Positions 12,863 to 42,958 of a stretch of DNA of 64,000 bases are shown here, piece after piece. The position numbers were made by a program, and so were the translations under genes. How positions within the stretch are numbered: position 1 is the first letter of the stretch; every line of letters begins with the position of its first letter. Under the pieces are notes generated by a model. That model did no database searches. It worked only from the letters and a program-made list of their open reading frames with translations, and had not been told where the DNA came from. The DNA comes from Candidatus Nanoarchaeia archaeon (GTDB lineage Archaea > Nanobdellota > Nanobdellia > WJKC01), in NCBI GenBank assembly GCA_041653515.1, contig JBAZFG010000002.1:125632-189631 (forward strand), written 5' to 3'.

Positions 12863-14770
12863 TTGTGTAGTTTAAGTTGTTTAATGAGGCGGGAGCATTT
12901 ATTATTATTGCTAATTTTGTTGCTTGGCGCTGGCTTGCGTTTGTATTCGTTGCGCAATGAATACTTCACTGGTAATGACGCGTTCATTCATTATAGTGTT
13001 ATCAGGCAGGCCTTGGTTGATGGCAACTTAGTTACTTATGAGCTTAGTTATGGTAATCCTGTTATTCTTGAGCCGTTGGGCTTTTATTTAGTGACACTTA
13101 TCCCATCATTTGTTCTTGGGCTTGACATAGCTTTCCTGTTAATGCCTGTGTTGTCTGGCGTGCTGTGCCTGCTGGTTGCTTATTACTTGTTAAGGGATTT
13201 GTTTGGCGAGCGAGCGGCTTTGATTGCAGTGCTGTTATTATCCTTGTCAATGGCTCATATTTACCGCACGAGCGCTAACACTTATCGGGGTGATGGTTTC
13301 TTCCTGACTGCTTTCTTGTTAACGCTTTATTATTTCAATAAGTCACTTAAGGCATCAGTTAAGTATTCAGTAGTTACTGGCTTGTTAATGACTCTTTGCG
13401 CTTCCTTGTGGAATGGTTATCCATTAGGCGTGATTGTTATTATCAGTGGTTTGATAATTAATTCAACTCTTAAGTTCTTGAAGAATGATTTTGCTAAAAA
13501 GGATTTGACTAATATTTTTGCTTTATTAGTGACTTATTATTTCACTGAGTTAATTCTTATTTTGACTGGCGTTACTAAGCGTTTGTTTTTCACGAGCAAT
13601 AACGCTGTTCACGCGGTCATTACTTTTGCGCCTTTGTTTATTGGGGTGATTTATTATTTCACTAAGCGCGTTAAGAAGTCAAGTGTTCTTGGCGTGCTGG
13701 CGGTTGTTGGGGTAGTCTTGTTGTTGTTGAATATTAATACAGTTTCATCGTTAGTGGCTCAGTCATTGTTTGAGAATACTTTGTTCTATGAAGTTGGTGT
13801 TAGTGAATTATTGCCGCCAACTTTTGATTTGTTGAGCGCGATGCTATCATGGTCTCTTTTCCTGATGTGGCCTGGCTTGTTGTTATTAGTGTTGCTAATC
13901 CTGAAGAAGCGTGACGCGCGCCATATTACTTTTCTTGTTTGGTCAGTTATAACAATTTACTTGATGCTTAATTACTCGCGTTATAATTTCATTGTATCAG
14001 TCAGCGCCGCTGCCTTGTCCGCACTGTTCATTAATTATCTTTATTTAAAGGCAGAGCAGTATCGTAAGAACGCTGGTCTTGTGCTGGTCTTAGTTCTTGT
14101 CCTGCTTTATGTGTTTGTTATTCCTTTAACAGGGTCTGTCACTAATTTGTTTAATAATCTTAACAGTGTTAGTCCGCGCGTGAATGCAGAGTGGGCTGAT
14201 GCCTTGACTTGGATGAGAGATAATCTTGAGCCTGACTTAACTGTTACTTGGTGGGACCATGGCTCTTGGGTTCAGTATTTTGCTGGTTTTCCCACAATTG
14301 CTGATAGTGTTACTGGTCAGGATATTGGCCGGATTACTCGAGTGGCTCAATTCTTGATGACTGCTAAGAATGATACTTTTAGTGACCTTGGCGCTAAGTA
14401 CTTAGTCTTGGGGGCTGATGACGTTCTTTATTCTAATGCAATTGTTAGTATTGCTGATGTTAGGGGTTTTGAGATGTATGGGCTTGACAGTGGTTATTTC
14501 CAATCAAATGATGATGAGTTGTATTTTATTAGCGGCGACCTTGTGCTCGCGCCTCGTTTCGTGTTCTTTGCTAATCAGTCAATTCCGTTGATAGAGTCTA
14601 ATGGCACTGGTTGTTTGATGATTAATTATCTTGAGCCAAGGCCTTATTTATTATTCCTTAATGATTATGCTTGCAATACTAATTATGCTCAATTAATGTT
14701 TGGTCTGGGCTTGCCTGGTTTTGAATTATTGTATCAGAATGATTATGTAGTTGTTTATAGGATTGAATGA
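12863..14770 (+). CDS. short AglB/STT3-superfamily oligosaccharyltransferase-like membrane protein
   Basis: Multi-TM N-terminus with 'GNDAFIHY' first-loop acidic motif and 'WWDHGSWVQY' variant of the STT3 WWDYG motif; start is probably the internal 'MRREH'. Confidence 0.5.
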   Translation: MCSLSCLMRREHLLLLLILLLGAGLRLYSLRNEYFTGNDAFIHYSVIRQALVDGNLVTYELSYGNPVILEPLGFYLVTLIPSFVLGLDIAFLLMPVLSGVLCLLVAYYLLRDLFGERAALIAVLLLSLSMAHIYRTSANTYRGDGFFLTAFLLTLYYFNKSLKASVKYSVVTGLLMTLCASLWNGYPLGVIVIISGLIINSTLKFLKNDFAKKDLTNIFALLVTYYFTELILILTGVTKRLFFTSNNAVHAVITFAPLFIGVIYYFTKRVKKSSVLGVLAVVGVVLLLLNINTVSSLVAQSLFENTLFYEVGVSELLPPTFDLLSAMLSWSLFLMWPGLLLLVLLILKKRDARHITFLVWSVITIYLMLNYSRYNFIVSVSAAALSALFINYLYLKAEQYRKNAGLVLVLVLVLLYVFVIPLTGSVTNLFNNLNSVSPRVNAEWADALTWMRDNLEPDLTVTWWDHGSWVQYFAGFPTIADSVTGQDIGRITRVAQFLMTAKNDTFSDLGAKYLVLGADDVLYSNAIVSIADVRGFEMYGLDSGYFQSNDDELYFISGDLVLAPRFVFFANQSIPLIESNGTGCLMINYLEPRPYLLFLNDYACNTNYAQLMFGLGLPGFELLYQNDYVVVYRIE

Positions 14771-16055
14771 GCTGGACGTATTCTTCTAATGCTTTGTCTG
14801 CTATTAGTCTTTCTTCTGCTTCAATGAATACTTTAACTGTGTGCCTAGTCTGGCTTGGTCTTAATAATACGCTTACTTCATCTGGCCTTGTGAATTTGAT
14901 GCCGTCCATTGTTAGTGCTTGAGTGTTTTCTTGCATTAACCGGTTGATTATTTTGGCCGCGACTTCTTCTTTCTCTTGATGAGTGCTAAACTCAACTTCT
15001 TCTTTGATGACAACTACTTTTGGTAGTTCATCTATTAACTCGCTTAGTTTTTTGCCTGTTTCTTTTATTATTCGCGCCATCATGAGAACGCTTAACGCGC
15101 CATCGCTGAAGGGGTAGTATTCATTCCAGTAGAAATGACTGCTTTCCTCGCCGCCGAATAACCCTTTTTGTTTGACTAATTCTTTTTCAATGAAAGTGTG
15201 ACCAACCTTGCACCAAACCATTGTTCCGCCCATTGGCTTGACTATTTTTGTTTCAATAACGCTTGAAACGCTTGGCGGAGCCACTATTACTCCTTTCTTT
15301 TTTTTGAGTATTTCTTTTGTGAATAACATTGTCATCATGTTACCGTCTATTACTCGGCCTTTATCATCAACGAACACGCTGCGGTCTCCATCCCCATCAA
15401 GTCCTGCGCCAAAGCTGGCGTTTTCACTCAATACTCTTTCCTGTAATTCATGTAAGTTCTTTTCTGATGGCTCTGGACTTTTCCCACCAAAGTCTGATTT
15501 TGGCTCATTGTTTAGGACTGTTGCGTCTAATAATTTATTGAACACACTATTAGTTAATGCGCCAGTACTGCCATTAAGGCAGTCAATAACGCATTTAACT
15601 TCTATTCGGCCAAACTCTTTTTCGAGGAATCGGGCGTAATCATTAGTGGCAGTAATATCTTGTTTTACTGAAGCGCTCTCTACTTTGTTGAAGTTATAAT
15701 TATTGAATAATTCCCTGACTTCTTTTAGTTCTTCTGGCGCAATGCCTGAGCCATCCCTCATTATTATTTTAAAGCCGTTATACTCTTTTGGTAAGTGTGA
15801 GGCTGTGATGAACACGCCAAAATCATAAGTATTTAGTATTTTATAATAGCACACTGGTCCAGGCATAAAACCGCCTTTTGTTACGTTAATGCCTGATGAG
15901 CGTAATCCTTCAATTAAGTGCTCGCCTAGTGCTGGGCTTGATTCCCTGCAATCCCACCCAATAAAACAAGTGCCTTTTAGTTTGGTGCCGAGCGCTCGGC
16001 CAAGAATGAACGACTGGTGCGTCGTGATGCCCCTCCCCCTGACGTCGTACGCCAT
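14679..16055 (-). CDS. phosphoglucomutase/phosphomannomutase (phosphohexomutase)
   Basis: 'TASHLP' active-site serine loop; 'GLDGDGDRSVFVD' metal-binding loop; ATG at 16055 preceded by GGAGGAG Shine-Dalgarno-like sequence; 92-nt convergent overlap with 12863..14770. Confidence 0.75.
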   Translation of the reverse strand: MAYDVRGRGITTHQSFILGRALGTKLKGTCFIGWDCRESSPALGEHLIEGLRSSGINVTKGGFMPGPVCYYKILNTYDFGVFITASHLPKEYNGFKIIMRDGSGIAPEELKEVRELFNNYNFNKVESASVKQDITATNDYARFLEKEFGRIEVKCVIDCLNGSTGALTNSVFNKLLDATVLNNEPKSDFGGKSPEPSEKNLHELQERVLSENASFGAGLDGDGDRSVFVDDKGRVIDGNMMTMLFTKEILKKKKGVIVAPPSVSSVIETKIVKPMGGTMVWCKVGHTFIEKELVKQKGLFGGEESSHFYWNEYYPFSDGALSVLMMARIIKETGKKLSELIDELPKVVVIKEEVEFSTHQEKEEVAAKIINRLMQENTQALTMDGIKFTRPDEVSVLLRPSQTRHTVKVFIEAEERLIADKALEEYVQLIQSYKQLHNHSDTIIQNQASPDQTLIEHN

Positions 16056-16078
16056 AAAAATCTCCTCCTTCAATTAGT

Positions 16079-17236
16079 TCACACCCAGTACTTACTGTTT
16101 TCCAGTTCCTCCTTGTCTTCATTGTATACAATGTTGCCGTCAATAATGCCGCTTGCTTTTAGGAATGGCCAGACTGTTGAGCCTTTAATTAAGTTTGAGT
16201 TCTCTTCTATAACGCTTTTATAACCAATCACGCAGAAGTCATTGATCTTCACGTTGTTTTTAATTACTGTTGTGCCGTCAATGATGCTGTTGTTAATTAT
16301 TGATTTCTGGCCTATGTGAGCGTTATCAAATATCACGCTTCCTTTGATGATTGAGCCCTCGCCTACTGTGACATCATGCATTAAGTGAGTGTTTGGGCCA
16401 ATAACGCAGTTCTTGCCAATAATGCACCCTTCTTCTATGATGACTTTGCCTTTGATTTCAGTGCCTTCTTTTATTACTGTGTTCTCGTGAATTATTGAGT
16501 TTTTTAGTTCGCTCATAACTTTATTGTTTAATTCAATGTAACCTCTTGGTGTTCCAATATCTGCCCAGTCACCTTTAAATTTGAAGCCGTGTAATGTGTC
16601 TTTTTCACAGAAGTACTGCCACATACTGCCAATAGTGTCAATGTTTTGGTTTTCATTAATGTATTCTGGTAATTTTTTATCAACCCATCCTTTGCTAAGA
16701 CCATATATTAGTGTGCTACCCAGTTGTGAGCGCGCTTCATCTGCTCTTGGTTTCTCTTGGAATGATGTTATAATATTGTTTTTTAGTTCTGCGACGCCAA
16801 ATAATTCAACCATGTATTTGTGGGGTAATTCGTATAATGCTATTGTTGCGCTGCTTGGTTTTATTGATTTACTAAACTCTTTTAAGTCAAGTCCATTAAT
16901 GTAATTATCCGCGCCTAGTATTATGAAATCATCACTGCCAACTTTTCCTACAGCATAATTAAGTCCTCCAACACTGCCTAGTTTGCCTTCTTCTTGGTTC
17001 TCAATTATTATGTTAACTTTCTTGTTAATTAGGAAGTCATTAATTTTTAGTTGTTTGTTATTAATGCTGACATAAATTTCATTAATTCCTGCTTCGTTTA
17101 GTTTGTTGATTAAGTGAATGATATTTGGCACGCCTGCTATTGGTAGTAAGCATTTAGGTGTTCTTAGTGTTAGTGGGTGTAATCTTGTTCCGCCGCCGCC
17201 TGCTAGTATTAGTGCTTTCACTGAACGCCACCCCAT
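16079..17236 (-). CDS. bifunctional sugar-1-P nucleotidyltransferase / left-handed beta-helix acyltransferase (archaeal GlmU-like)
   Basis: N-terminal 'LILAGGGGTRLHPLT'; C-terminal hexapeptide repeats 'IKGKVIIEEGCIIGKNCVIGPNTHLMHDVTVGEGSIIKGSVI'. Confidence 0.65.
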   Translation of the reverse strand: MGWRSVKALILAGGGGTRLHPLTLRTPKCLLPIAGVPNIIHLINKLNEAGINEIYVSINNKQLKINDFLINKKVNIIIENQEEGKLGSVGGLNYAVGKVGSDDFIILGADNYINGLDLKEFSKSIKPSSATIALYELPHKYMVELFGVAELKNNIITSFQEKPRADEARSQLGSTLIYGLSKGWVDKKLPEYINENQNIDTIGSMWQYFCEKDTLHGFKFKGDWADIGTPRGYIELNNKVMSELKNSIIHENTVIKEGTEIKGKVIIEEGCIIGKNCVIGPNTHLMHDVTVGEGSIIKGSVIFDNAHIGQKSIINNSIIDGTTVIKNNVKINDFCVIGYKSVIEENSNLIKGSTVWPFLKASGIIDGNIVYNEDKEELENSKYWV

Positions 17237-18051
17237 TCCCTGATAGCCCTCTCGTAACGCTCTGTGTTATCGGTTGGGAGCCATTGGCCTTCGAATGGGT
17301 AACCGTTTAGTTTGCCTTTTTCCTGTATTTTTGGGAAGATGTCATATTCCATTGAGGTAGGGCCTGTTTCATTAATCATGCTGATTATTGATGGGTCAAG
17401 CACGTACACGCCTGCGTTGATTAGTTTACTTACTGGTTCAGTTGGTTTCTCAATGAAATTAGTTATTACTGGGCCTTTTAGTAATGCGACGCCAAAGCTT
17501 GATGGGTCATCAACAGTTGTTAGTGCGATTGTTGCTTGACCTCCATTCTTTCGGTGGAAGTCAAATAAGCTTTCAATATCAATGTTAACTAAGTTGTCGC
17601 CGTTAAGCATTATGAATGGTTCGTTTAGCCATTCTTTGGCTAACCTGAGACAACCTGCTGTTCCTAATGGTTCATCTTCCATTATATATCTTAGTTTGAC
17701 TCCGAACTTGCTGCCGTCTCCAAAGTAATCTTTTACTTTTTCGCCAAGGTACCCGACAGATAGTGTTATGTCGCGAACTTCGTGCTTCCGGAGGAGGCTT
17801 ATTGTGTGTTCGATTAATGGTCTTCCTTGAACAGGTACCATTGGCTTGGGTATTTCGTAAGTTATTGGTCTGAGGCGTGTTCCTTTGCCGCCTGCTAGTA
17901 TTAGTGCTTTTTTAGGGCTTTTTCTGTCAAGGGCTTTTCTTAGTAAAAATTCAATAGCGTGACTGCGGTTCCTAATGCGGACGCCGTCAACAAAAGCATC
18001 AATATCATTTGTAAGTGATTGGTCGACTGTTATAGTGATTCTATCACGCAT
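17218..18051 (-). CDS. sugar-1-phosphate nucleotidyltransferase with N-terminal ribbon-helix-helix (CopG/MetJ-like) domain
   Basis: Residues 1-45 'RITITVDQSLTNDIDAFVDG...NRSHAIEFLLRKAL' fit a beta-strand/helix/helix RHH pattern; then 'ALILAGGKGTRLRPITYEIPKPMV' nucleotidyltransferase core; 19-nt overlap with the downstream gene. Confidence 0.6.
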   Translation of the reverse strand: MRDRITITVDQSLTNDIDAFVDGVRIRNRSHAIEFLLRKALDRKSPKKALILAGGKGTRLRPITYEIPKPMVPVQGRPLIEHTISLLRKHEVRDITLSVGYLGEKVKDYFGDGSKFGVKLRYIMEDEPLGTAGCLRLAKEWLNEPFIMLNGDNLVNIDIESLFDFHRKNGGQATIALTTVDDPSSFGVALLKGPVITNFIEKPTEPVSKLINAGVYVLDPSIISMINETGPTSMEYDIFPKIQEKGKLNGYPFEGQWLPTDNTERYERAIREWGGVQ

Positions 18052-20279: not shown

Positions 20280-20312
20280 CTTTTAAAAAATGATGTCCTC
20301 TATCGTGATTTA

Positions 20313-21041: not shown

Positions 21042-21050
21042 CCCACCCGA

Positions 21051-25465: not shown

Positions 25466-25490
25466 TATGATCTTTTATGATTATTTTCTT

Positions 25491-31162: not shown

Positions 31163-31183
31163 TATTTAAAAGATAGTTATTAT

Positions 31184-32422: not shown

Positions 32423-32457
32423 TAAATCTTTTATTAGCTTGCTTCCTTTATTCTATT

Positions 32458-32775: not shown

Positions 32776-32818
32776 ACTTTAAGACCGCCTCTTCTGTTGC
32801 TTTAGCGAAGGCGTGGTC

Positions 32819-33880: not shown

Positions 33881-33958
33881 TATTAAGAAACCTTCACTGG
33901 CGAACTGTTTATTAATTTTTCTATACTATACGCTTTTAAATTAATCTTTCATTAGTTT

Positions 33959-35506
33959 TTGTTAATGCTAGATAAGTTATGGCAGTACGTAGTTGATAAT
34001 AAAGCGTTCTTCATAGTTATTCCATTAATATTGTTATGGACTCGTTTTGATTACGAGTCTTTTGCGATGAGCGTGACCCCGTTTGGCGTGCCGTTAGATG
34101 ATGCTTATATTGGTTATCAGTTCGCGCGCAACTTTGCTCAGGGCAGAGTATTAGAATATAATGTTGGCGAGCAGACTACTGGCGCGTCAACCTTGTTATG
34201 GCCTTTGGTGATGGCATTGATTTACTTATTGACTGGTTACTTATACCCTAATTACGTGATTGCTTTTCTAGTCATATCAAAAGTCACTGCCACAATCCTT
34301 TACTTCTTGTCAATCACTGGCATTTATTATTTGAGCCAGAAGTATTATTTCAAGAATAAGTTTGCTAGCGTGATGCTCTGCTCGTTCCTTGCTTTAGAGT
34401 TGCACATGCTTTGGGGCACGCTGAGTGGGATGGAGATGTCATTGTTTGCTTTCCTAATAACGTTCATGCTGATTGCTTTGCGTGAGAATAAGATTAAGCT
34501 TGGCGCAGTGCTTGGTGGTTTGATTGGTTTAACAAGACCTGAGGGCATGGTTTTGTACCCTGGGTTAATTCTCTTATTATTCTTCTTTAAGTTAGTTAAG
34601 ACTAAGAAAATAGTTTTTAGGGAAGTTAAAGAATTATTATTGCAATTAATTATTTTTGTTGTGATAATGATCCCTTGGCCAATCCTTAATTACATGATTT
34701 CAGGCAAGCCTTTGCCAGCGACTTTTTACATGAAAGGCGGCGTGGTTAGTCTTGCTAATTTGTTGGGTGGTTTCACGTTCGTGTTTGACGTGCTTAATTT
34801 GTTTGGCAGTGATTACGCTTTGTCATTATTATTCGTGGCTGGCGTGATTATTTATTTTGCGCTGAAGAAAGAGTTCAGTCCTGAGGCCTTACTTGCTATA
34901 ATCTTCATGGTTCTTTACGGCACAGCAATCCCTAACCTGACTGGTTTTGGTCGTTATTACATGCCTGTTTTCCCAATAATCGCTTTGGTTGCTTTCTACT
35001 CATTCAAGTTAATTGAGGGTGTTTTACCTTCTAAGTTTAAGAAGTTTGGTTCAGCGTTATTAATGCTCGTGCCAATGATAATAATCACTGTTGTGGCTTC
35101 ACCAATGGCTAATTATCAATTAAGTAATTATGATGTTTGGAAACAAGTTTATGGACATAACGTTTATAGTATTAATCATTTTGAGGTGGCAATGGCTTAC
35201 TGGTTGATTGATAATTCACAAATAACTGATGTTGTTGGCACTTGTGATATTGGTGCGCCTAGTTTTATTGCTAACCGCTACTTGGTTGATGTGTTTGGTT
35301 TGATTGGGCCTGAGGTCAGGTCTTGGAATGGAACTTATGATAGTTACTTGCGTTATCGCAACGTTACTTATTATATTGATTACCCTGCTAACGCTAATGA
35401 TAAAGTTAAGGCTAATTGCACTATTGTTTACAATACTACTTACTTGTCAATGATTACTATTACTGCCGGTTACCAGATGGCTATCTATAAATGCGAGTGG
35501 CTTTAA
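33959..35506 (+). CDS. polytopic membrane protein, GT-C-like
   Basis: About 12 TM helices; 'PLDDAYIGYQFARN' acidic loop motif near the N-terminus. Confidence 0.4.
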   Translation: MLMLDKLWQYVVDNKAFFIVIPLILLWTRFDYESFAMSVTPFGVPLDDAYIGYQFARNFAQGRVLEYNVGEQTTGASTLLWPLVMALIYLLTGYLYPNYVIAFLVISKVTATILYFLSITGIYYLSQKYYFKNKFASVMLCSFLALELHMLWGTLSGMEMSLFAFLITFMLIALRENKIKLGAVLGGLIGLTRPEGMVLYPGLILLLFFFKLVKTKKIVFREVKELLLQLIIFVVIMIPWPILNYMISGKPLPATFYMKGGVVSLANLLGGFTFVFDVLNLFGSDYALSLLFVAGVIIYFALKKEFSPEALLAIIFMVLYGTAIPNLTGFGRYYMPVFPIIALVAFYSFKLIEGVLPSKFKKFGSALLMLVPMIIITVVASPMANYQLSNYDVWKQVYGHNVYSINHFEVAMAYWLIDNSQITDVVGTCDIGAPSFIANRYLVDVFGLIGPEVRSWNGTYDSYLRYRNVTYYIDYPANANDKVKANCTIVYNTTYLSMITITAGYQMAIYKCEWL

Positions 35507-36897
35507 GCAGAGTTATTAATGTAGAATACTATTAGTTGCGCTTGAGCTGCTGATGGGTATGCTTTGATTGGCATGATGAACGAGTAGTTAAGAGTGTAAG
35601 CATAAGCAGGGTATTGTTCGTAAGCGCTGATAACTAGGAATGAGTAATTACTTACTTGTTGGAGGAATAATTCTTCAGTGGCTGGGAACGCGTCAACTGT
35701 TTTCTCGCTGTAATAAGTTAGTTGTGGCACGCTGTTAGCCATGACGTTGCCTTCGTAAGGCAGTAAGAACTCGCCTGCTTGCTTGACATATAAGTATGAA
35801 TCCTTAGCATTATTAATGCTTGTTAACCCTGTTGGCAGGTTCTCAATAATAATGATTATTGTTATTATCGCTAACGCGTAATTAATGATTTGCTTGTTTT
35901 TACTCACGTAACTAATAATGAAGCTTGCGCCAAGAATAGCTGATAAGCAAGCAAAAGGCAGTAAGTGTATTAGGAACCTAACTTCTTTGACGCTGGTTAA
36001 CAATGAGTAGAACGCTAAGTAAATGAATAAATTAAGTGCTATGAACTGCACTTTCTTATTCTTTAATTTGAAGATGATTGGTATGATGCCAATGAACACT
36101 AGTAAACCCATTAATATACCATAATTAAACAGCATGCTAGTTATGTAATAGAACATGTCACCTGCTTGCGCTCCACCAGTCGCGTTAACATTAAATGATA
36201 GGAATGATAGTGGCGTGTATACTGGGTTGTTGAATACTATGATGTCATAAATCATTAGTGGCGCGTAACCGATTAACGCGCCAAACAACCAATAATAATC
36301 CTTTAATTTTTTCTCTTTATTAATTAATGAGTAAGCAAGGTATACTACGCTCCCAATTATTGCCGTGAACTTAATACTAGCTGCTAAACCCAATAATAAA
36401 CCACTAGGCAACCGCTTGCCTTTAATGAATAATAACGCGCTTAGCACTAATAGGAACGCGCTTGGCACATCAATAGTGAACCGTAGTGACCAGTAAAGGA
36501 AGACCCATTGAAAACACATTATTAACCCTGTAATAATCCCATACTTCTCGCCTAATAATTCCTTACCTAAGTAATAAGACGCGATTGTTAAGCCCAACCC
36601 GAATAAGATGTTAATGAACCTGATTACTAATTCATTATAACCAAAAGGCAATGATAACCCATATAATATTGCTGGGTAAACGATTGACCTGCCATCCCAC
36701 CAACCAGTTGTTGGCGTGCCAATAAACAAGCTTTTAGTCATCACTAAGTATTGAGCCTCATCCCACCAGACAGTGCTATAAGCACTAATTAATGGCAGTC
36801 TTGTTATCAGGAAGACCGCACTGATTAAACCAACCCAGAAGTACTTATTATTCACTAAATCCTTTAAGTTAATCTCGTCATTATCATTCATATTCAA
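35503..36897 (-). CDS. GT-C fold membrane glycosyltransferase (ArnT/PMT-like)
   Basis: 'WWDEAQYLVMTKS' DE motif in the first loop; multi-TM. Confidence 0.5.
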   Translation of the reverse strand: MNMNDNDEINLKDLVNNKYFWVGLISAVFLITRLPLISAYSTVWWDEAQYLVMTKSLFIGTPTTGWWDGRSIVYPAILYGLSLPFGYNELVIRFINILFGLGLTIASYYLGKELLGEKYGIITGLIMCFQWVFLYWSLRFTIDVPSAFLLVLSALLFIKGKRLPSGLLLGLAASIKFTAIIGSVVYLAYSLINKEKKLKDYYWLFGALIGYAPLMIYDIIVFNNPVYTPLSFLSFNVNATGGAQAGDMFYYITSMLFNYGILMGLLVFIGIIPIIFKLKNKKVQFIALNLFIYLAFYSLLTSVKEVRFLIHLLPFACLSAILGASFIISYVSKNKQIINYALAIITIIIIIENLPTGLTSINNAKDSYLYVKQAGEFLLPYEGNVMANSVPQLTYYSEKTVDAFPATEELFLQQVSNYSFLVISAYEQYPAYAYTLNYSFIMPIKAYPSAAQAQLIVFYINNSA

Positions 36898-36945
36898 TCA
36901 CTTCTTTATTATTAATAGTCATTCTTAGTTAATAGTTTTAACCTT

Positions 36946-38328
36946 TTAGTTTAAGAGAATCTTTGAAGGTTTAAAGAAATTATTCAGAATGTTCCTAATA
37001 GGTGCTTCCCTGTGTGAGATATTATTGAATATATAAGCTAGTTTGGTAAAGTCTATTAACTCATCGAATGGAATCTTTTCTTTCAGCAGGTAAGTGCCTT
37101 TCCTAATCATGTTGTCATAATCAAGCCATTCCATTGGTTTGATAACACCTTTCTTCTTGAGTAATTCATAATAATCTGCGCCAGGGTCAGGGGTAAATAC
37201 GTAGAAATGAGCAAAGTTAGTTTTATTCTTAATGGCAAAATTAATTGTTTTAATTATAGAATCCCTTGTTTCACCTGGTGCCCCAATGATGTGGCTTGCA
37301 CTAATTTCTATACCAAAAGCCTTTAATTTTTCAATACCTTGGCTTATCTGCCTGATTGTTAAGCATTTGTTCATTGACTTAAGTATTTCATCATCCCCTG
37401 ATTCAACCCCAACAAAAGCTCTCTTGTAACCTGTTTTATGCATTATATTGAGCAAGTCATTATTTATTGTGTCAAGCCGAGTGTTACTGCCCCATGTGAT
37501 GTCAAGTTTTTCTTTTTTAATTAGACTTGTGAATTCAGTGATAAACTTATGATTAGCTGTCATTGTATCATCATAAAACATAATCTTATTGGATTTAGTG
37601 ACGTCAATAACCTGTTTTATTTCATTGATAACACTTGATGGGCTTCTAAAATTAACCTTTTTTCCAAACATTTTTTTAGAAGCACAAAACTTGCAACCAA
37701 AAGGGCATCCTCTTGAAGCTATTAATACATTATAAGTATCTTCTGCCCCAAGTTTTCTATGATTACTTGGTTTGTATTTATCTAATGGGAATAAATCTCT
37801 GGCTGGGAAAGGCAGGTCATTCAGGTCAGTACTGGTTGGTTTTGTGGGGTTTAGGATGATCTTCTTGCCTTTTTTGAATACAATACCATTAACCTCTTCT
37901 AACCTTTGGTTAGCCAGTATCTTAACAATGGTTTCTTCTCCTTCACCTAGCACGCCTATATCAAAACAGTTTAATGAAATGGTTTCTAAAGGTTCTGATG
38001 TGATGTGAATGCCGCCTAGAATTATCTTTGCATTAGTTTTTGATTTTATTTCACTGGCTATCTTAATCGTATTCTTCATAAGAGGGGTTGTTGATGTAAG
38101 ACCTATAAACTTAATGTCCTTTGAGTTAATCCTTTTTATTACATCCTCAATAGTGAATTCTTCAACATTTAAGTCAAGGCATTCAACCCTATAACCTGCT
38201 TTTCTTACGCTTGCGGCAATGTATGCTAGTCCAAGGGGTAAGCTTACTGTTTGGTTTTCCTGTCTTGAGATGTTGAAATGTTTTTTTTCAAAAAAATCTT
38301 TTTGCGGGGGATTAATGAGCAATAACAT
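36946..38328 (-). CDS. B12-binding-domain radical SAM protein (class B rSAM)
   Basis: 'SRGCPFGCKFCAS'; N-terminal 'LPLGLAYIAASVRKAGYRVECLD'; paralog of 181..1704. Confidence 0.7.
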   Translation of the reverse strand: MLLLINPPQKDFFEKKHFNISRQENQTVSLPLGLAYIAASVRKAGYRVECLDLNVEEFTIEDVIKRINSKDIKFIGLTSTTPLMKNTIKIASEIKSKTNAKIILGGIHITSEPLETISLNCFDIGVLGEGEETIVKILANQRLEEVNGIVFKKGKKIILNPTKPTSTDLNDLPFPARDLFPLDKYKPSNHRKLGAEDTYNVLIASRGCPFGCKFCASKKMFGKKVNFRSPSSVINEIKQVIDVTKSNKIMFYDDTMTANHKFITEFTSLIKKEKLDITWGSNTRLDTINNDLLNIMHKTGYKRAFVGVESGDDEILKSMNKCLTIRQISQGIEKLKAFGIEISASHIIGAPGETRDSIIKTINFAIKNKTNFAHFYVFTPDPGADYYELLKKKGVIKPMEWLDYDNMIRKGTYLLKEKIPFDELIDFTKLAYIFNNISHREAPIRNILNNFFKPSKILLN

Positions 38329-38417
38329 ACTAGAAATTAGTTTAATTAGTATTATAAGACTTTTTTAAAATTTTTTTAGAATCATAAAATTTATTTTATA
38401 AAAACTCTAAAGATGAA

Positions 38418-38573
38418 ATGCGTAAGTACAAGCCAAAGTATTTGTACTTAATTAAACAATTAAAAGATAGAGGTGTTGTGCATACTAAAATAAGGAGTGA
38501 TAAACAGTTATGCATTAAGTTAACACCTACTGGTCATTTTCTGTTAAAAATTTTGAACAAAGCGGGTAATTAA
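38418..38573 (+). CDS. small (51 aa) putative winged-helix DNA-binding protein
   Basis: Below the 60-aa ORF cut-off; 'MRKYKPKYLYLIKQLKDRGVVHTKIRSDKQLCIKLTPTGHFLLKILNKAGN'; TATA-like 'TTTATAAAA' ~25 nt upstream. Confidence 0.25.
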   Translation: MRKYKPKYLYLIKQLKDRGVVHTKIRSDKQLCIKLTPTGHFLLKILNKAGN

Positions 38574-38986
38574 TTCCGTATTAAATTGATGAAATCAATT
38601 ATACCTGGTAATAACTCGTCTTCCTTTAATTTATTAATTTCAATCCATTTTAGGTCCTTTGTTTTATGGTCATCAAGGTTTGGTTGCCCGCTGATTAATT
38701 GTGATTCATAGCATAGTACAATAACGTGTTTTCTATGGTCAGGGTAATCCCATATATTTGTATGAACATATGGAATCATTTGTTTTGGTTTAACAATATA
38801 ACCTGTTTCTTCTAATACTTCTCTGGCCACAGCATCTTCAGGTTTCTCGCCAAAATCAATTTTTCCACCTGGTAATTCCCATTTTAAATGCGCGCCCGGC
38901 ATAATTTCTTCATCCCTTAGTAAAAGTAGTATTTCATTACCTCTTTTAATTAGGGCTGTCGCGACAATAATTATTTGGTCATTCAT
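38570..38986 (-). CDS. NUDIX hydrolase
   Basis: Nudix box 'GGKIDFGEKPEDAVAREVLEETGY'. Confidence 0.7.
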   Translation of the reverse strand: MNDQIIIVATALIKRGNEILLLLRDEEIMPGAHLKWELPGGKIDFGEKPEDAVAREVLEETGYIVKPKQMIPYVHTNIWDYPDHRKHVIVLCYESQLISGQPNLDDHKTKDLKWIEINKLKEDELLPGIIDFINLIRN

Positions 38987-39121
38987 GAATTAAAAATTAC
39001 CAGATAATCCATTAAGTATTTTGTGATTACCTTTTTTAAATTTGATGTTGGTCAGTGATGATTAAACCAACCCAGAAGTACTTATTATTCATTAGGTCTT
39101 TTAGGTTTATTTCATCTTCAT

Positions 39122-40141
39122 TCATATTGTCATCCTCGCTATGATGAATGCTGCCACGCAGAATAATGATTCAATCATCATTAAGAATGGAGTGATGTAT
39201 TCTTCTCGTTTTACTAATCTCATAGCTAAGTGTGTTAGTGAGTAAGTCTTCTTGTACTTAGGTTTTAGTGTGCCATCTTTCTGTAGTTCACCAAGACTGC
39301 TGGCCTTGAATTTCTTACGAGCTTTTAATGCAAACTCAATGAACCAAGGCGCGAACGCTATTAGCGCGAACTTCTCAATATTACCAATAATGATTGACGC
39401 GCCAAACACTGTGCCAACTAAGTATGGCAGTGTGTCGCCTGGCAGGAAACTCGCTGGGTACTTGTTGAATTTAAGGAAGCCTGCAAGACAAGCAGCTGTT
39501 GTTAAAGCAAGTATTGCGCCTTCAATCGTGCCGTAAAAATATGAGTATAAGCCAGTGCCAGTGAGTAATACTAAGCCTAAGCCTGTTTCTAAACCATTCA
39601 TGCCCGCGAGCATATTAGTCGCGTTGCCGCTGAAAATAATGATTAATGGCACAATGATTAGTGGGTAAATAATACCAATATTAACTGGCCCAACAAATGG
39701 AATGCTCACTAAGCTTTGGCCAGCGTTAATAGCCATTAATGGCACAGCAGCTATTAGTGAGATAATCACTTTATGCCATTGTTTTAATCCGATCCGCGTG
39801 TCAATCTCATCCTTATTAGTTCGTTGTTCTGGTTGAATGTTAATATCATCAAGGGTTATTAGTAAGGTTATTGTTAACACGCTTGTTAGGCCGGCGAATA
39901 ATAATGTTAAATTAGTTCCTGCGTTAGTGACAAAGACTGTGATGAAAATATAAGCCATTAAAGCTGTTAGTAAACCAATTGCTATTGGTATGCCACCACT
40001 GGTCGCCATCTTAGGCTTATTTTTCTTCTGGATATCCATTGCCTTCATACCTATTTTCTCAAGGAATCGCTTCAAGTAAGGGGCTATTATTATTGTGGCC
40101 ACAAAACCAGTTATTATTGTTATGATTAATGATTCATCCAT
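39122..40141 (-). CDS. MraY/WecA-family UDP-GlcNAc:dolichyl-P GlcNAc-1-P transferase (AglH-like)
   Basis: 339-aa polytopic protein; 'KPKMATSGGIPIA' P-x-GG loop; 'TLDDIN' DDxxD-like motif; adjacent to aglB. Confidence 0.5.
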   Translation of the reverse strand: MDESLIITIITGFVATIIIAPYLKRFLEKIGMKAMDIQKKNKPKMATSGGIPIAIGLLTALMAYIFITVFVTNAGTNLTLLFAGLTSVLTITLLITLDDINIQPEQRTNKDEIDTRIGLKQWHKVIISLIAAVPLMAINAGQSLVSIPFVGPVNIGIIYPLIIVPLIIIFSGNATNMLAGMNGLETGLGLVLLTGTGLYSYFYGTIEGAILALTTAACLAGFLKFNKYPASFLPGDTLPYLVGTVFGASIIIGNIEKFALIAFAPWFIEFALKARKKFKASSLGELQKDGTLKPKYKKTYSLTHLAMRLVKREEYITPFLMMIESLFCVAAFIIARMTI

Positions 40142-40178
40142 TAAGGAAATGTTAGGGTGATTAGTTTTTTAATTGTTT

Positions 40179-40339
40179 GCCCCCGCAGTTTGGAATAAAC
40201 TTTTTTCAATAAGCAGGGGGATCAGGAAATGCCTAAAACTGAGGGGGATGTGCCCCCGCGGTTTGGAATAAACTTTTTTCAATAAGCAGGGGGATCAGGA
40301 AATGCCTAAAACTGAGGGGGATGTGCCCCCGCGGTTTGG
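40179..40339. repeat. tandem direct repeat, 73-bp unit x 2.2, GC-rich hairpin element
   Basis: Units 40179-40251 and 40252-40324 differ at one position (a/g); a third partial unit 40325-40339 ends at the aglB stop codon; the reverse complement matches the elements at 57371 and 62941. Confidence 0.85.
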
Positions 40340-42958
40340 TTACCAGGCAGGACTGCCGTTATCAACCCATGGCATCATTGCAGTATAATTAATGTGATAA
40401 ATATTAATGTTGGTTGGGTCGTATTGTGATATTAATCCTCTTATGTTTAGTGAGTTACTTGAGTAGACTAATTCAAAACCAGGTATTGTTTCGTTCAATA
40501 AGTATAAGTGAGTCATGAAACGATCATTTAAGTCTGATGGGATGTGAATTAAGCCTCCTTCAATGAATTCAATACAAGAGTCAATGCCGTTAGTCTCATT
40601 AAAGTAAGTGCAGCCATTACCATAATCACAAACGCAATTGTATGGGTGAAGCGTGTTACTGCCCGTAGCTAAGTTATAAACTACTGCTTGTGGCTGACCA
40701 AAAGATTGGTCTTCAGCCATTGGTATTAAAACGTTTACTATGTAACTCTCGCCTTTAGGGAATAATACACCATCAATGATTGTGTCAGCGCCAACATAAC
40801 CTGGTGAGGCTAAGTAATTGAAAACTAGTAGTGTGCTGAATTGTTCAGGATTATACAAGTTATTATCCACTTGCTGGCTGTAAGTGTAAGGTGCGTAATA
40901 ACCTGGCCTGCCACCAATATTAGCCATCTGAACATATTTTAGTATATCATCATCCATGACTAATAAATAATTAGGCCTATTGCCTGTTTCATTATTCTTG
41001 AAGTAATCAAGTGAGTCATAAACCTCTGTCATGTTAAAGCCGCTAAACATTTGGCCGCCAATAACTTCATCCCATACTACTTGGAAGTTACCCCCATCAA
41101 CTGTTGTTGCCCGCTCGCCCATGGTTTGAACCCAGTAACCATAATCCCACCAATGAGTGAATACAGCGTTAGTGTCAGTGTTATTCCTAACCCAACTCAT
41201 TGATTCGCCCCAATCATTAGTGAAGCTTGGAATCATTGTTGAAGCATCTTCAACAATAACATAGTAACTCCATATTACTAATAGTATTGCGACTGCGTAA
41301 ATAGCTGTTGAGTAAACTTTATCACTTGTTATTTTGCTGATTAAATTATTTATCCGCTCAATAGCGTAAGCAGCTAATAACACGAATATTGGGGTGCTAG
41401 CAAAGACAATTCTTATTGCGCCCCTAGTTGCAATAACACTTAAAGCAAACCATAAGATGATTATTAGTTTACTTGGCGTTAACTCACCCCACTTACTGCT
41501 CTTATGGAATTTAATGTAAAATAATATTACTGTTAAAGCCAATAATGGCAGTGTTAGTAAGTAAGTGTTCTCAAAGAATAAATTAATTGCTTCATAACCG
41601 TTTAAGTTAACGAATTTGCTAAACATGAAGAATAAGATGAACACAGTAAACATTATCACTACTGATGTGGCTTTCTTGCCAAACTTACCTAATACTTCTT
41701 GAACTAATAATGCTCCACCAATAACAAATAATGGCACAAACCATTGAAGCCTATGCCACCAGTCAACCCCGTTAGGGTCATAGAACCATGGGGCTTGGTT
41801 TTCAGTAACTGAGACGCAGAAAGCACAAGTGCCAAAAGGGTTTAGTATTGTATCAAGAGCGCCTTGTAGTTTGGCGCCAACATCAAATAATCCAGTTAAT
41901 TGCATTACTGGCAGACCAACCATTATTAATACTGCCATCATTATTACGAAATAAAAATTATCAGGCCACTTCTTGTTCTTGATTAAGTTACTGATGAATA
42001 AATCATAAACAATTTTTAATCCAAGCACTAACGCTGTGATAGTTGGTATTAAGAACATATCAATCATGATTAAACCAAAACCATTATAGCGCAGGGTCAT
42101 TGTAGCGTTCATTAATATTATTGGGATGAACCACGCAAAGTAAGTGATTACGTTTTTATTGCTTAATTTACCCATTAAAGCAAGGAATAGGAATGCTAAG
42201 CCAATGCTGAAGAATAAGAAGTTAGCCCCACCCCAAGTCAGGCTTGATAAGCCAGCTAATACGCCTGATATTAACCCGTAAATTAATGCTTGTTTAGTCT
42301 TATTTGCCCTAATTGATTTGACTAATGCATAAATCATGCTAAACCAAAAGACTGTTGCAAGCGCTTCCTTATCACTAAACCCTGCCATGGTCCTGAATAA
42401 ATATGATGGGATTAATGATAAAAACGCTGTGGCAATTAACGCTGTTTTCTTGTTGAATATTTCTTTAGTCATTAAGAAAAAGAATATCATGCTTATTACA
42501 AACGCAACAACTGGGTAAATCATTGAATAACTCATTAGTTCGCCGCCAAATAATGGGTGAAATATTGTGTATAATCCTGCAACAAAGTAAGACACTAATT
42601 GGTGCTCCTTGAAAGTGCTAAAACCTTCTGGAAAATAACGAAATGAATCCATTTCAGGCAGGGTGCCCTGCTCCACTAGTGTTTCAGTGTAGCGGTAAAA
42701 AACATACGGGTCAAGACCAAGCAATAAACCATTGTATAATGGTATGCTTAGCATCCTAACCCAAGCCCCAACTAATATAATACTAATTAATGCTGCGTAT
42801 AATATTATCTTCTTATTTTCTTTGAGGAATTTTACTGCTTCGCCAAAATTAAGTTCATCCTCATCAGTGGTTGCTGGTTTTTTCTCTTTCTTATCACTGC
42901 TAAACCAGCCTTTAATCTTTCGCCCTATCTCCCCGAAATCAATTTCTTCATCACTCAA
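40340..42958 (-). CDS. aglB: archaeal oligosaccharyltransferase AglB (STT3 family)
   Basis: 'FTHWWDYGYWVQTMG' canonical WWDYG motif; N-terminal 'GLDPYVFYRY' first-loop DxD-type motif; ~13 TM helices plus a C-terminal soluble domain. Confidence 0.85.
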   Translation of the reverse strand: MSDEEIDFGEIGRKIKGWFSSDKKEKKPATTDEDELNFGEAVKFLKENKKIILYAALISIILVGAWVRMLSIPLYNGLLLGLDPYVFYRYTETLVEQGTLPEMDSFRYFPEGFSTFKEHQLVSYFVAGLYTIFHPLFGGELMSYSMIYPVVAFVISMIFFFLMTKEIFNKKTALIATAFLSLIPSYLFRTMAGFSDKEALATVFWFSMIYALVKSIRANKTKQALIYGLISGVLAGLSSLTWGGANFLFFSIGLAFLFLALMGKLSNKNVITYFAWFIPIILMNATMTLRYNGFGLIMIDMFLIPTITALVLGLKIVYDLFISNLIKNKKWPDNFYFVIMMAVLIMVGLPVMQLTGLFDVGAKLQGALDTILNPFGTCAFCVSVTENQAPWFYDPNGVDWWHRLQWFVPLFVIGGALLVQEVLGKFGKKATSVVIMFTVFILFFMFSKFVNLNGYEAINLFFENTYLLTLPLLALTVILFYIKFHKSSKWGELTPSKLIIILWFALSVIATRGAIRIVFASTPIFVLLAAYAIERINNLISKITSDKVYSTAIYAVAILLVIWSYYVIVEDASTMIPSFTNDWGESMSWVRNNTDTNAVFTHWWDYGYWVQTMGERATTVDGGNFQVVWDEVIGGQMFSGFNMTEVYDSLDYFKNNETGNRPNYLLVMDDDILKYVQMANIGGRPGYYAPYTYSQQVDNNLYNPEQFSTLLVFNYLASPGYVGADTIIDGVLFPKGESYIVNVLIPMAEDQSFGQPQAVVYNLATGSNTLHPYNCVCDYGNGCTYFNETNGIDSCIEFIEGGLIHIPSDLNDRFMTHLYLLNETIPGFELVYSSNSLNIRGLISQYDPTNINIYHINYTAMMPWVDNGSPAW

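What the first reader, a model, noticed from the sequence alone, without database searches (positions are those of the whole stretch)
12863..42958. Two AglB/STT3-type oligosaccharyltransferases, one canonical (WWDYGYW) and one short (WWDHGSW)
The 872-aa protein has the textbook archaeal AglB motif. The 635-aa protein keeps the multi-TM core and a degenerate WWDxG motif but lacks most of the C-terminal domain. This could mean two OST activities with different glycan or sequon specificity, or a regulatory or inactive paralog. Both sit in the same island.
Basis: partly seen in the sequence, partly recalled or inferred. Interest (0 to 1): 0.5.

Follow-up and report, generated by a model that had tools for sequence, protein, structure and literature searches.

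The report
Two AglB oligosaccharyltransferase paralogs, one island
A DPANN (Nanoarchaeia) archaeon carries a canonical long and a compact short STT3/AglB-type N-glycosylation enzyme in one sugar-biosynthesis island; both look catalytically intact, which is an ordinary long/short paralog arrangement already known from Archaeoglobus and Thermococcales, with a few unusual motif substitutions in the short copy.

Summary
ORF 40340-42958 (-) encodes an 872-aa STT3/AglB with WWDYGYW. ORF 12863-14770 (+), whose real start is probably the ATG at 12884 (628 aa), encodes a second STT3/AglB with WWDHGSW. They are the only two STT3 genes in the window.

The short protein is neither degenerate nor mostly truncated. 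It keeps the multi-TM core, the EL1 Asp (D32), the EL5 Glu (E308), the conserved Args (R128, R366), WWDxG, and a ~212-aa C-terminal domain (296 aa in the long one) that includes the central-core unit. Its model matches STT3/AglB/PglB structures far better than other GT-C folds.

It differs at three places:
- R135-G-D137 replaces the second DXD/DXE motif.
- DSVTGQ replaces DGGK.
- Tyr516 replaces the DK-motif Lys.

R-G-[DE] also occurs in a large archaeal clade that includes Thermococcales AglB-L orthologs and Thermococcus short STT3s, so it does not indicate inactivity.

The pair and its gene order recur in about five related DPANN genomes. The two copies share only ~20% identity and diverge in parallel.

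Most likely both are active N-OSTs with different donor and/or acceptor preference. This is a new member of a known kind, of modest interest.

The parts
12884..14770 (+). Short STT3/AglB paralog, 628 aa (the ORF is open from the TTG at 12863; the ATG at 12884 matches deposited protein P0001 and all homologs)
   Evidence: Pfam STT3 33.7 bits, above the gathering score. Profile against PDB: AfAglB-L at 2.9e-9 and the AfAglB-S1 C-terminal domain at 3.5e-6. Foldseek top 19 hits are all STT3/AglB/PglB.
12971..12979 (+). Short: first 'DXD' motif, G30-N31-D32 (equivalent to AfAglB G-N-D47)
   Evidence: Invariant in the family. Aligned to AfAglB D47. Universal across 179 homologs. Coordinates checked.
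13286..13294 (+). Short: R135-G136-D137 at the position of the second DXD/DXE/DXH motif
   Evidence: hhalign aligns R135 with long D196 and D137 with long E198 (in which the long protein is numbered one lower). Invariant in the family. The same R-G-[DE] is present in Thermococcales AglB-L orthologs.
13796..13807 (+). Short: EL5 motif G-V-S-E308 (TIXE/SVSE equivalent)
   Evidence: Aligned to AfAglB T-I-A-E360. Invariant.
13979..13981 (+). Short: R366, equivalent to AfAglB R426
   Evidence: Aligned to AfAglB N425-R426. Present in 173 of the 179 homologs aligned (five have Lys, one Ser).
14249..14263 (+). Short: W456-W-D-H-G460 (WWDXG motif)
   Evidence: Invariant in all 11 family members.
14303..14320 (+). 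Short: D474-S-V-T-G-Q479 at the position of the DGGK motif
   Evidence: DS[VI]xGQ is shared by most of the R-G-[DE] clade.
14420..14443 (+). Short: D513-V-L-Y516-S-N-A-I520 at the DK-motif position (Tyr replaces the signature Lys)
   Evidence: hhalign aligns Y516 with long K674 and I520 with long M678. BLASTP to Thermococcales AglB-L pairs DDVLYSNAI with ADWIKFNAI. Tyr is invariant in 11 sequences.
40340..42958 (-). Long canonical AglB, 872 aa
   Evidence: Pfam STT3 55.4 bits. PDB sequence hits to STT3 and AfAglB-L at 1e-13. Identical to deposited P0011.
42710..42718 (-). Long: G81-L-D83 (first DXD motif)
42365..42373 (-). Long: D196-K-E198 (second motif, DXE type as in eukaryotic STT3)
41801..41812 (-). 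Long: S383-V-T-E386 (SVSE/TIXE motif of EL5)
41138..41152 (-). Long: W603-W-D-Y-G607
40925..40948 (-). Long: D671-I-L-K674-Y-V-Q-M678, the canonical DK motif DxxKxxx(M/I)
   Evidence: Consensus taken from PMC3703281.
14679..19508 (-). Cassette conserved next to the short gene: PGM/PMM (14679-16073), GlmU-like sugar-1-P nucleotidyltransferase (16079-17236), nucleotidyltransferase (17218-18051), Wzx/MOP flippase (18075-19508)
   Evidence: Pfam. Same order beside the short gene in L001, L004 and L006; in L005 the three enzyme genes abut the short gene and only a weaker Wzx match (26% identity) lies about 4 kb further on.
9229..12827 (.). Upstream neighbours: UDP-GlcNAc 2-epimerase-like (9229-10662, +), GT4 (10659-11789, -), HddA-like GHMP sugar kinase (11826-12827, -)
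   Evidence: Pfam and NCBIfam. Epimerase, GT4 and kinase are conserved in L001.
35503..40141 (-). Neighbours of the long gene: AglH/Alg7-like polyprenyl-P HexNAc-1-P transferase (39122-40141) and an Alg9/PMT_2-like GT-C (35503-36897), with NUDIX and B12-radical SAM genes between them
   Evidence: Pfam PF00953 and PF03901. AglB, AglH-like and GT-C are contiguous in L003.

Best explanation
The island encodes two single-subunit N-oligosaccharyltransferases of the STT3/AglB family (GT66). They come from two deeply diverged AglB lineages.

The long enzyme is canonical. It carries D83, D196-x-E198, E386, WWDYG and a Lys-type DK motif. It sits next to an AglH/Alg7-like initiating phosphotransferase and an Alg9/PMT-like GT-C.

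The short enzyme has the multi-TM catalytic core plus a minimal C-terminal domain (the central-core unit and a small beta part). It keeps D32, D137, E308, R128, R366 and WWD. It has Arg instead of the first Asp of the second DXD motif, DSVTGQ instead of DGGK, and Tyr instead of the DK Lys. It sits in a conserved cassette with phosphohexomutase and two sugar-1-P nucleotidyltransferases, with a Wzx-type flippase beyond them.

Inferred mechanism: each enzyme takes a flipped dolichol-(pyro)phosphate-linked glycan on the outer membrane face and transfers it to Asn of N-X-S/T sites. The acidic residues and a divalent cation do the chemistry, and WWD binds the +2 Ser/Thr. The differences in the LLO-proximal motif and in the Ser/Thr pocket give the two enzymes different donor and/or acceptor preferences.

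Shown here: family membership, motif content, conservation and synteny. Inferred: catalytic activity, Asn as the acceptor, and divergent specificity.
For: Family membership:
- Pfam STT3 is above its cut-off for both proteins.
- Both hit AglB/STT3 structures by sequence or profile.
- The Foldseek top 19 hits for the short model are all STT3/AglB/PglB, at E 1e-13 to 2e-10.
- hhalign of the short family against the long family gives probability 99.3%, E 7.5e-21, over 502 columns.

Catalytic residues:
- D32, R128, E308 and R366 are invariant in the 11-member short family. D32 and E308 are universal, and R128 and R366 nearly so, across the 179 homologs.
- They map to AfAglB D47, R154, E360 and R426. 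The roles of D47, D161, H163, E360 and R154 are described in PMC8342417 and PMC7226087.
- R-G-D is also present in Thermococcales AglB-L orthologs. P0089's C-terminal domain scores 505 bits to 3wov/2zag/3vu1, and BLASTP of the short protein against P0089 gives 3e-32 over the full length. P. furiosus AglB-L is active in vitro (PMC3703281).

Purifying selection:
- The central-core unit is the best-conserved part of the short family (59% mean identity, against 49% for the TM region).
- Divergence of the short copy tracks that of the long copy across five genome pairs.

Context:
- The short-PGM-NTP-NTP string, with a Wzx flippase beyond it, recurs in L001, L004, L005 and L006.
- Long-AglH-GT-C recurs in L003.
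- Both genes are 14 kb apart on one contig of GCA_053993175.1.

Precedent: A. fulgidus has AglB-L (868 aa) and S1/S2 (591/593 aa) at 25% identity, and S1/S2 have only the central-core unit (PMC3703281). More than 30 archaea carry multiple aglB copies with WWDXG variants (PMC5131992).
Against: - There is no biochemical data for any member of the short family or for Thermococcales short STT3s.
- The first metal-ligand Asp is replaced (AfAglB D161, PglB D154).
- The DK/MI signature residue is neither Lys nor Ile. This contradicts the published rule that paralogs in one organism share one pocket type (PMC3703281).
- The DGGK motif is absent.
- Within the wider R-G-[DE] clade many members have lost WWD entirely, so the clade may include enzymes with other acceptors.
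- The AF2 model has low confidence in EL1, EL2 and EL5 (pLDDT below 50 at residues 26-67, 127-136 and 292-321), so active-site geometry could not be checked.
- The presence of R-G-D in P. furiosus AglB-L itself is inferred from orthologs, not read from its sequence.
Confidence: 0.6

Rival explanations
1. The short protein is an active GT-C of STT3 ancestry, but it does not glycosylate Asn in N-X-S/T. It might transfer the flipped glycan to another acceptor, such as Ser/Thr/Tyr (an O-OST-like role), a lipid, or a growing surface polymer.
For: The Ser/Thr-pocket signature Lys is replaced by Tyr and the DGGK motif by DSVTGQ. Related R-G-[DE] proteins have widely degenerate or missing WWD, for example LWPDG and WRDDA. 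The gene sits with the flippase and sugar-activation genes rather than with the initiating AglH-like enzyme.
Against: WWD, the part that hydrogen-bonds the +2 Ser/Thr hydroxyl, is invariant in all 11 family members. So are the EL5 V-S-E and D32, which hold the acceptor carboxamide in known OSTs. Thermococcales AglB-L orthologs share the R-G-D TM core and belong to a bona fide N-OST lineage. No STT3 homolog is known to me to use a non-Asn acceptor (own knowledge).
Confidence: 0.17
2. The two enzymes are functionally redundant N-OSTs acting on the same lipid-linked glycan and the same sequons. The short copy would be a back-up or a differently regulated isoform.
For: Both are in one island with a single obvious flippase. 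AglBs are known to be promiscuous towards donors (reference list of PMC11407970; PMC5131992). Not all AglB copies are constitutively expressed in archaea that have several (PMC5131992).
Against: The two share only ~20% identity and differ at every substrate-proximal motif (second DXD, DGGK, DK). Both have been retained side by side at 37-62% identity across about five small DPANN genomes, which argues against simple redundancy.
Confidence: 0.15
3. The short protein is a catalytically dead or regulatory STT3 paralog, for example a lectin-like or scaffold subunit.
For: The first Asp of the second DXD motif and the DK Lys are lost. It is a shortened protein.
Against: All other catalytic residues are invariant. 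The R-G-D variant occurs in an active OST lineage. The central-core unit is the most conserved region, and the short copy evolves only slightly faster than the long one. The ORF is intact in all 11 cluster representatives.
Confidence: 0.06

Closest known systems
Archaeoglobus fulgidus AglB-L (AF_0380, 868 aa) together with AglB-S1/S2 (AF_0329 and AF_0040, 591/593 aa)
   Same: One organism has a long and a short AglB at ~20-25% identity. The short one has a minimal C-terminal domain built on the central-core unit with WWDxG and the kinked-helix motif. The short profile matches the AfAglB-S1 C-terminal structure 3vgp (E 3.5e-6) and full-length AfAglB-L (E 2.9e-9). First motif is G-N-D, as in AfAglB-L.
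   Different: AfAglB-L has D-H-H at the second motif, and all three Af paralogs have a Lys-type (insertion-variant) DK motif and WWDYG (PMC3703281). The window's short protein has R-G-D, WWDHG, Tyr at the Lys position, and an extra ~100-aa beta-rich tail after the central-core unit. Here the two paralogs sit in one island.
Thermococcales AglB-L and short STT3 paralogs (Pyrococcus/Thermococcus; structures 2zag, 3vu1, 3wov for the AglB-L C-terminal domain)
   Same: The TM core has the same R-T-x5-R-G-D motif. There is full-length similarity: BLASTP 3e-32 to the AglB-L ortholog P0089. WWDHG is also found in Thermococcus short STT3s (P0093, P0142). The DK helix aligns residue for residue: DWIKFNAI against DVLYSNAI.
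   Different: The Thermococcales proteins keep Lys in the DK motif. AglB-L has large IS/P1/P2 units (about 950 aa) and a DGGH motif. Identity is only ~24-30%.
Eukaryotic STT3 / TACK-type AglB (compared with the long protein)
   Same: D-x-E second motif, S-V-[ST]-E EL5 motif, WWDYGYW, canonical DxxKxxxM. The best PDB sequence hits include STT3 subunits.
   Different: It has DGGN rather than the DNXTZNXS/T double sequon. It is presumably a single-subunit enzyme. It scores below the cut-off for TIGR04154 archaeo_STT3.
Trypanosoma brucei STT3A/B/C and mammalian STT3A/STT3B
   Same: [quoted passage not shown] They are cited as the model for AglB paralogs in PMC3703281 and PMC5131992.
   Different: Those paralogs are much more similar to each other and keep all canonical motifs. 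Their specificity differences have been shown experimentally.

Membership tests
STT3/AglB/PglB oligosaccharyltransferase (Pfam PF02516, CAZy GT66) | Significant match to the STT3 N-terminal domain model | tested here: met
   Short 33.7 bits and long 55.4 bits, against a gathering score of 24.5. The STT3-PglB core domain PF21436 scores 23.4 bits (cut-off 23) for the short protein and 18.8 bits for the long.
STT3/AglB/PglB oligosaccharyltransferase (Pfam PF02516, CAZy GT66) | Overall fold: multi-TM (13 TM) GT-C core plus a C-terminal mixed alpha/beta domain, closest to solved OSTs rather than to other GT-C families | tested here: met
   Short model (pLDDT 70, pTM 0.64): the Foldseek top 19 hits are all STT3/AglB/PglB, at E 1e-13 to 2e-10 and TMq 0.53-0.64. 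DPY19 scores 3.5e-5, AftA 4e-4 and ArnT 6e-4. The exact TM count was not established. The long protein was not modelled; sequence evidence only.
STT3/AglB/PglB oligosaccharyltransferase (Pfam PF02516, CAZy GT66) | Asp of the first DXD (xxD) motif in EL1 (AfAglB D47, PglB D56) | tested here: met
   Short G-N-D32, long G-L-D83. Aligned to AfAglB D47. Asp in every homolog that covers the column (176 of 179; three lack that part of the sequence).
STT3/AglB/PglB oligosaccharyltransferase (Pfam PF02516, CAZy GT66) | Second DXD/DXE/DXH motif in EL2 (AfAglB D161-H-H163, PglB D154-x-D156, yeast D166-x-E168) | tested here: not met
   The long protein meets it (D196-K-E198). The short does not in canonical form: R135-G-D137, so the first acid is Arg and the second is kept. 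The same variant occurs in Thermococcales AglB-L orthologs and about 120 other cluster representatives, so it is a lineage variant, not an exclusion from the family.
STT3/AglB/PglB oligosaccharyltransferase (Pfam PF02516, CAZy GT66) | Glu of the TIXE/SVSE motif in EL5 (AfAglB E360) | tested here: met
   Short G-V-S-E308 is aligned to T-I-A-E360. Long S-V-T-E386.
STT3/AglB/PglB oligosaccharyltransferase (Pfam PF02516, CAZy GT66) | WWDXG motif in the C-terminal domain | tested here: met
   Short WWDHG456-460, long WWDYG603-607. X is known to vary (PMC11407970, PMC5131992).
STT3/AglB/PglB oligosaccharyltransferase (Pfam PF02516, CAZy GT66) | DK motif DxxKxxx(M/I) or MI motif MxxIxxx(I/V/W) on the kinked helix (Ser/Thr pocket) | tested here: not met
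   The long protein meets it (D671-I-L-K674-Y-V-Q-M678). The short has D513-V-L-Y516-S-N-A-I520: the first and third signature positions fit, but the second is Tyr. This is invariant in 11 sequences. The spatial equivalence of Tyr516 was not verified in 3D.
STT3/AglB/PglB oligosaccharyltransferase (Pfam PF02516, CAZy GT66) | DGGK motif (euryarchaeal AglB and PglB) or double sequon (Eukarya, TACK, Asgard) | tested here: not met
   The long protein has D-G-G-N (close to DGGK). The short has D-S-V-T-G-Q. Only the Asp is shared.
STT3/AglB/PglB oligosaccharyltransferase (Pfam PF02516, CAZy GT66) | Transfer of a lipid-linked oligosaccharide to Asn of N-X-S/T | not testable with these tools
   This needs an enzyme assay or glycoproteomics.
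Short AglB with a CC-only C-terminal domain (A. fulgidus AglB-S1/S2 type) | About 590 aa, with a C-terminal globular domain consisting only of the central-core unit | tested here: inconclusive
   Residues 421-529 of the short profile align to residues 1-123 of the 164-aa AfAglB-S1 domain (E 3.5e-6). The protein has about 100 further beta-rich residues (530-628) that also align with the C-terminus of the long paralog. It is therefore compact but not CC-only.
TIGR04154 archaeo_STT3 (archaeosortase A-associated OST) | Score at or above the curated cut-off (450 bits) | tested here: not met
   Short 98 bits, long 92.9 bits.
Other GT-C families (PMT, ArnT, DPY19, Alg9-like) | A better match to these than to STT3 | tested here: not met
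   The PMT_2 Pfam hit (31 bits) is weaker than the STT3 hit and covers only TM2-TM6. Structural matches are 8 or more orders of magnitude weaker than those to OSTs.

The most novel reading that the evidence does not exclude
The short paralog could define a 'Tyr-type' Ser/Thr pocket OST, with R-G-D and DSVxGQ in place of DXD and DGGK. Its acceptor motif and/or lipid carrier would differ from those of the canonical long AglB. One version: a Dol-P-linked glycan started by a GT2 enzyme for the short, and a Dol-PP-HexNAc-based glycan started by the AglH-like enzyme for the long. A genome-reduced DPANN archaeon would then run two orthogonal N-glycosylation pathways from one island, breaking the published rule that paralogous OSTs in one organism share one pocket type.
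Probability: 0.25. Interest if true: 0.5.

Novelty: new member of a known kind. Interest (0 to 1): 0.3.

Why it matters
Multiple AglB paralogs are common in archaea, but their division of labour is almost unstudied. This locus offers a clean, syntenically conserved long/short pair in DPANN archaea, whose cell surface mediates their symbiotic life style. It also offers natural variants at three substrate-proximal motifs: R-G-D, DSVxGQ and Tyr for the DK Lys. Those variants could be used to probe how OSTs choose donors and sequons. As it stands, the finding extends known biology rather than changing it.

Tried and rejected
1. HMMER alignment of the short profile to AfAglB-L in EL2 is shifted by one residue and opens a 4-residue gap. 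I did not rely on it. I used the anchor Arg (R128 = R154), the STT3B alignment, MAFFT, BLASTP and hhalign, which agree with each other.

2. P0163 (967 aa, R-G-D plus WWDYGYW) was suspected to be P. furiosus AglB-L. It is not: it has no match to 2zag/3vu1. P0089 is the Thermococcales AglB-L ortholog.

3. P0093 (Thermococcus short STT3) has no solved relative.

No distance or geometry claims are made, and a second model was not run for that reason.

5. The genome-contig scan used only two peptide patterns and found 3 species. It is a lower bound on distribution.

6. The literature search for PF0411/PF0156 returned only Pfam-number noise.

7. The two 515-aa unknown membrane ORFs are not paralogs of each other. 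Neither they nor the 950-aa ORF are STT3.

8. Base composition gives no sign that either OST gene is a recent foreign insertion: GC is 0.37-0.40 at both genes.

9. hhalign and MAFFT disagree on which long-protein Arg (R512 or R516) matches short R366. This is left open.

Full report
**Observation.** The window has an ORF at 12863-14770 (+) and one at 40340-42958 (-). Their translations contain WWDHGSW and WWDYGYW respectively. Both exceed the Pfam gathering score for the STT3 domain (33.7 and 55.4 bits against 24.5). Both hit A. fulgidus AglB-L and eukaryotic STT3 chains in the PDB by sequence. An STT3 profile searched against all six-frame ORFs finds only these two. The deposited identical proteins are P0001 (628 aa) and P0011 (872 aa), both labelled 'MAG: STT3 domain-containing protein [Candidatus Nanoarchaeia archaeon]' and both from a 191,793-bp contig. 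The short gene therefore most likely starts at the ATG at 12884, since all homologs start M-[RK]-[RK]-E. Orc1/Cdc6, FEN1 and an intron-containing tRNA confirm an archaeal context.

**Anatomy of the long protein.** In 872-aa numbering it carries:
- G-L-D83
- R189 followed by D196-K-E198
- S-V-T-E386
- R516
- WWDYG603-607
- D-G-G-N621-624
- D671-I-L-K674-Y-V-Q-M678

. This is a complete canonical set: first DXD, second DXE, SVSE/TIXE Glu, WWDYG, a DGGK-like motif, and the DK motif DxxKxxx(M/I) as defined in PMC3703281.

**Anatomy of the short protein.** In 628-aa numbering it carries:
- G-N-D32
- R128
- R135-G-D137
- G-V-S-E308
- R366
- WWDHG456-460
- D-S-V-T-G-Q474-479
- D513-V-L-Y516-S-N-A-I520

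. A profile of nine family members aligns D32 to AfAglB D47, E308 to E360 and R366 to R426. PMC8342417 and PMC7226087 describe D47, D161, H163 and E360 as the metal and carboxamide ligands, and R154 as a further conserved residue at the metal site.

At the second motif, four alignments agree: the STT3B alignment, MAFFT, BLASTP and hhalign. All place R135 opposite the first Asp (AfAglB D161, long D196) and D137 opposite the second ligand (H163, E198). At the DK position, hhalign and MAFFT pair Y516 with long K674 and I520 with long M678. BLASTP to a Thermococcales AglB-L ortholog lines up DDVLYSNAI with ADWIKFNAI.

The short family is thus canonical at four of the catalytic positions and at WWD. 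It is non-canonical at three substrate-proximal places.

**Is it truncated?** A hydropathy scan puts the last TM at about residue 415 in the short protein and about 576 in the long one. That leaves soluble domains of ~212 and ~296 aa. Residues 421-529 of the short profile align to the A. fulgidus AglB-S1 C-terminal domain (3vgp, E 3.5e-6), which is a bare central-core unit (PMC3703281). The remaining ~100 residues are predicted beta strands, and their end aligns with the end of the long paralog. Most of the 244-aa length difference lies in the long protein's N-terminal tail and longer loops. 'Lacks most of the C-terminal domain' is therefore wrong.

**Fold.** An AF2 model (pLDDT 70, pTM 0.64) matches STT3A, AfAglB-L, yeast STT3 and PglB at E 1e-13 to 1e-10. 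The next GT-C folds are at 3.5e-5 (DPY19) or worse.

**Relatives.** The short family proper is small: 11 clusters at 37-55% identity in a 5.8-billion-protein collection, and three species genomes in the pattern-limited GTDB scan. The exhaustive search finds 621 relatives at E below 1e-3.

I aligned 179 of them. D32 and E308 are universal, and R128 and R366 nearly so. The second motif splits the set into a D-x-[ED] group, which holds the long protein and its DPANN relatives, and a large R-G-[DE] group. The R-G-[DE] group includes:
- Thermococcales AglB-L orthologs. P0089's C-terminal domain scores 505 bits to 3wov, 2zag and 3vu1. P0134 and P0135 also belong here.
- Named Thermococcus short STT3s: P0062, P0087, and P0093 with WWDHGHW.
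- A Nanoarchaeota protein (P0055).

P. furiosus AglB-L has in vitro activity (PMC3703281). R-G-D is therefore a lineage variant compatible with catalysis. This step rests on orthologs, not on the P. furiosus sequence itself.

The short protein is much closer to the Thermococcales AglB-L ortholog (3e-32, full length) than to its own neighbour (5e-10, in fragments). The two paralogs therefore stem from different AglB lineages rather than a recent duplication.

**Conservation and context.** The long and short genes co-occur in the window and in four other cases:
- isolate GF352 (P0003 and P0012)
- GCA_053993175.1, where they are 14 kb apart on one contig
- contigs of matching length 136,604 bp (P0047 and P0014)
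- contigs of matching length 726,884 bp (P0048 and P0018)

They probably also co-occur on the 103,823-bp contig (L006 and P0020).

The short gene is followed by convergent PGM/PMM and two nucleotidyltransferase genes in L001, L004, L005 and L006. A Wzx flippase comes directly after them in L001, L004 and L006; in L005 only a weaker Wzx match lies about 4 kb further on. The long gene sits in the string Orc1/Cdc6, SpoIIM-like, AglB, AglH-like, GT-C.

Within the short family the central-core unit is the best-conserved region (59% mean identity against 49% for the TM part). Short-short identities track long-long identities across genome pairs, for example 0.52 with 0.62 and 0.39 with 0.52. This pattern indicates vertical co-inheritance under purifying selection and argues against a decaying or inert copy.

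**Mechanism.** The best-supported reading is two active single-subunit N-OSTs. Each would use a flipped dolichol-linked glycan built by the island's GT2/GT4 enzymes from sugars activated by the adjacent PGM, nucleotidyltransferase, epimerase and kinase genes. The differing DGGK-position and DK-position residues suggest different donor and/or sequon preferences. Activity, acceptor and specificity are inferences.

A more speculative split assigns a Dol-PP-HexNAc glycan to the long enzyme (next to the AglH-like gene) and a Dol-P-hexose glycan to the short one (euryarchaeal-type lineage). The known phylogenetic division of lipid carriers makes this consistent (PMC11407970), but it is untested.

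**Comparison with the known.** Long/short AglB paralogs at ~25% identity, with a CC-only short form, are described for A. fulgidus (PMC3703281). More than 30 archaeal genomes hold multiple aglB copies with WWDXG variants (PMC5131992). The X position is known to vary in Euryarchaeota (PMC11407970).

What appears unreported in the papers I could read is a Tyr at the DK Lys position. A Lys-type long paralog in the same organism goes against the 'same pocket type in all paralogs' rule of PMC3703281. This is a modest variant and is not verified in 3D.

**Verdict.** This is a new member of a known kind. Interest 0.3.

Noticed in passing
window 40340-42958 (-), motifs at 41801-41812 and 42365-42373; homologs P0012-P0022: The long AglB and its closest DPANN relatives carry S-V-[ST]-E in EL5 and D-K-E as the second motif. 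PMC8342417 and PMC7226087 describe these as the eukaryotic (SVSE, DXE) types. They combine them with a euryarchaeal/bacterial DGGK-like D-G-G-N. More distant DPANN homologs have T-V-A-E instead.
   Followed up: partly
proteins P0066, P0078, P0080 and others (not in the window): A large subclade of the R-G-[DE]/DS[VI]xGQ STT3 relatives (dozens of 50%-identity clusters, about 730-990 aa) has L-W-P-D-G-S in place of WWDxG and Glu at the DK-Lys position. It keeps all the TM catalytic residues. WWD-less STT3 homologs may have a different acceptor.
   Followed up: no
window 4427-7279 (-) and 1701-4430 (-): Two very large ORFs (950 and 909 aa), the 950-aa one with the weak membrane-protein family hits below, in a low-GC stretch (0.27-0.30). 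The 950-aa one has only sub-threshold hits to GT-C_AftD (22 bits against 26) and to MmpA. It is conserved close to the short STT3 in L001, L005 and L006. The 909-aa one has no family hit.
   Followed up: partly
window 29615-31162 (+) and 33959-35506 (+): Two 515-aa multi-TM ORFs with no Pfam family. They are not related to each other (BLASTP E above 1). They may be further GT-C or polymerase-like enzymes of the island.
   Followed up: partly
window about 20000-34000: A segment with higher GC (0.40-0.45) encodes two DUF362 proteins (one with 4Fe-4S domains), two radical SAM enzymes (one SPASM; a B12-binding one lies further on at 36946-38328), a GH99-like protein, an amine oxidase and extra GTs. 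Apart from a GT4 and a GT2, it has no counterpart in the compact version of the island in GCA_053993175.1. It looks like a variable glycan-tailoring module.
   Followed up: partly
window 14679-14770: The short STT3 gene and the convergent PGM/PMM gene overlap by 92 nt at their 3' ends. The overlap is 16 nt in the related locus L001.
   Followed up: no
window 62792-62935 (+): A 144-nt tRNA match (Rfam RF00005, 49.7 bits) that ARAGORN did not report. It is presumably an intron-containing archaeal tRNA.
   Followed up: no
window 39122-44838 (-): Orc1/Cdc6, a SpoIIM-like membrane protein, the long AglB and the AglH-like transferase form a co-directional string. The string is conserved in GCA_053993175.1 (L003).
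   Followed up: no
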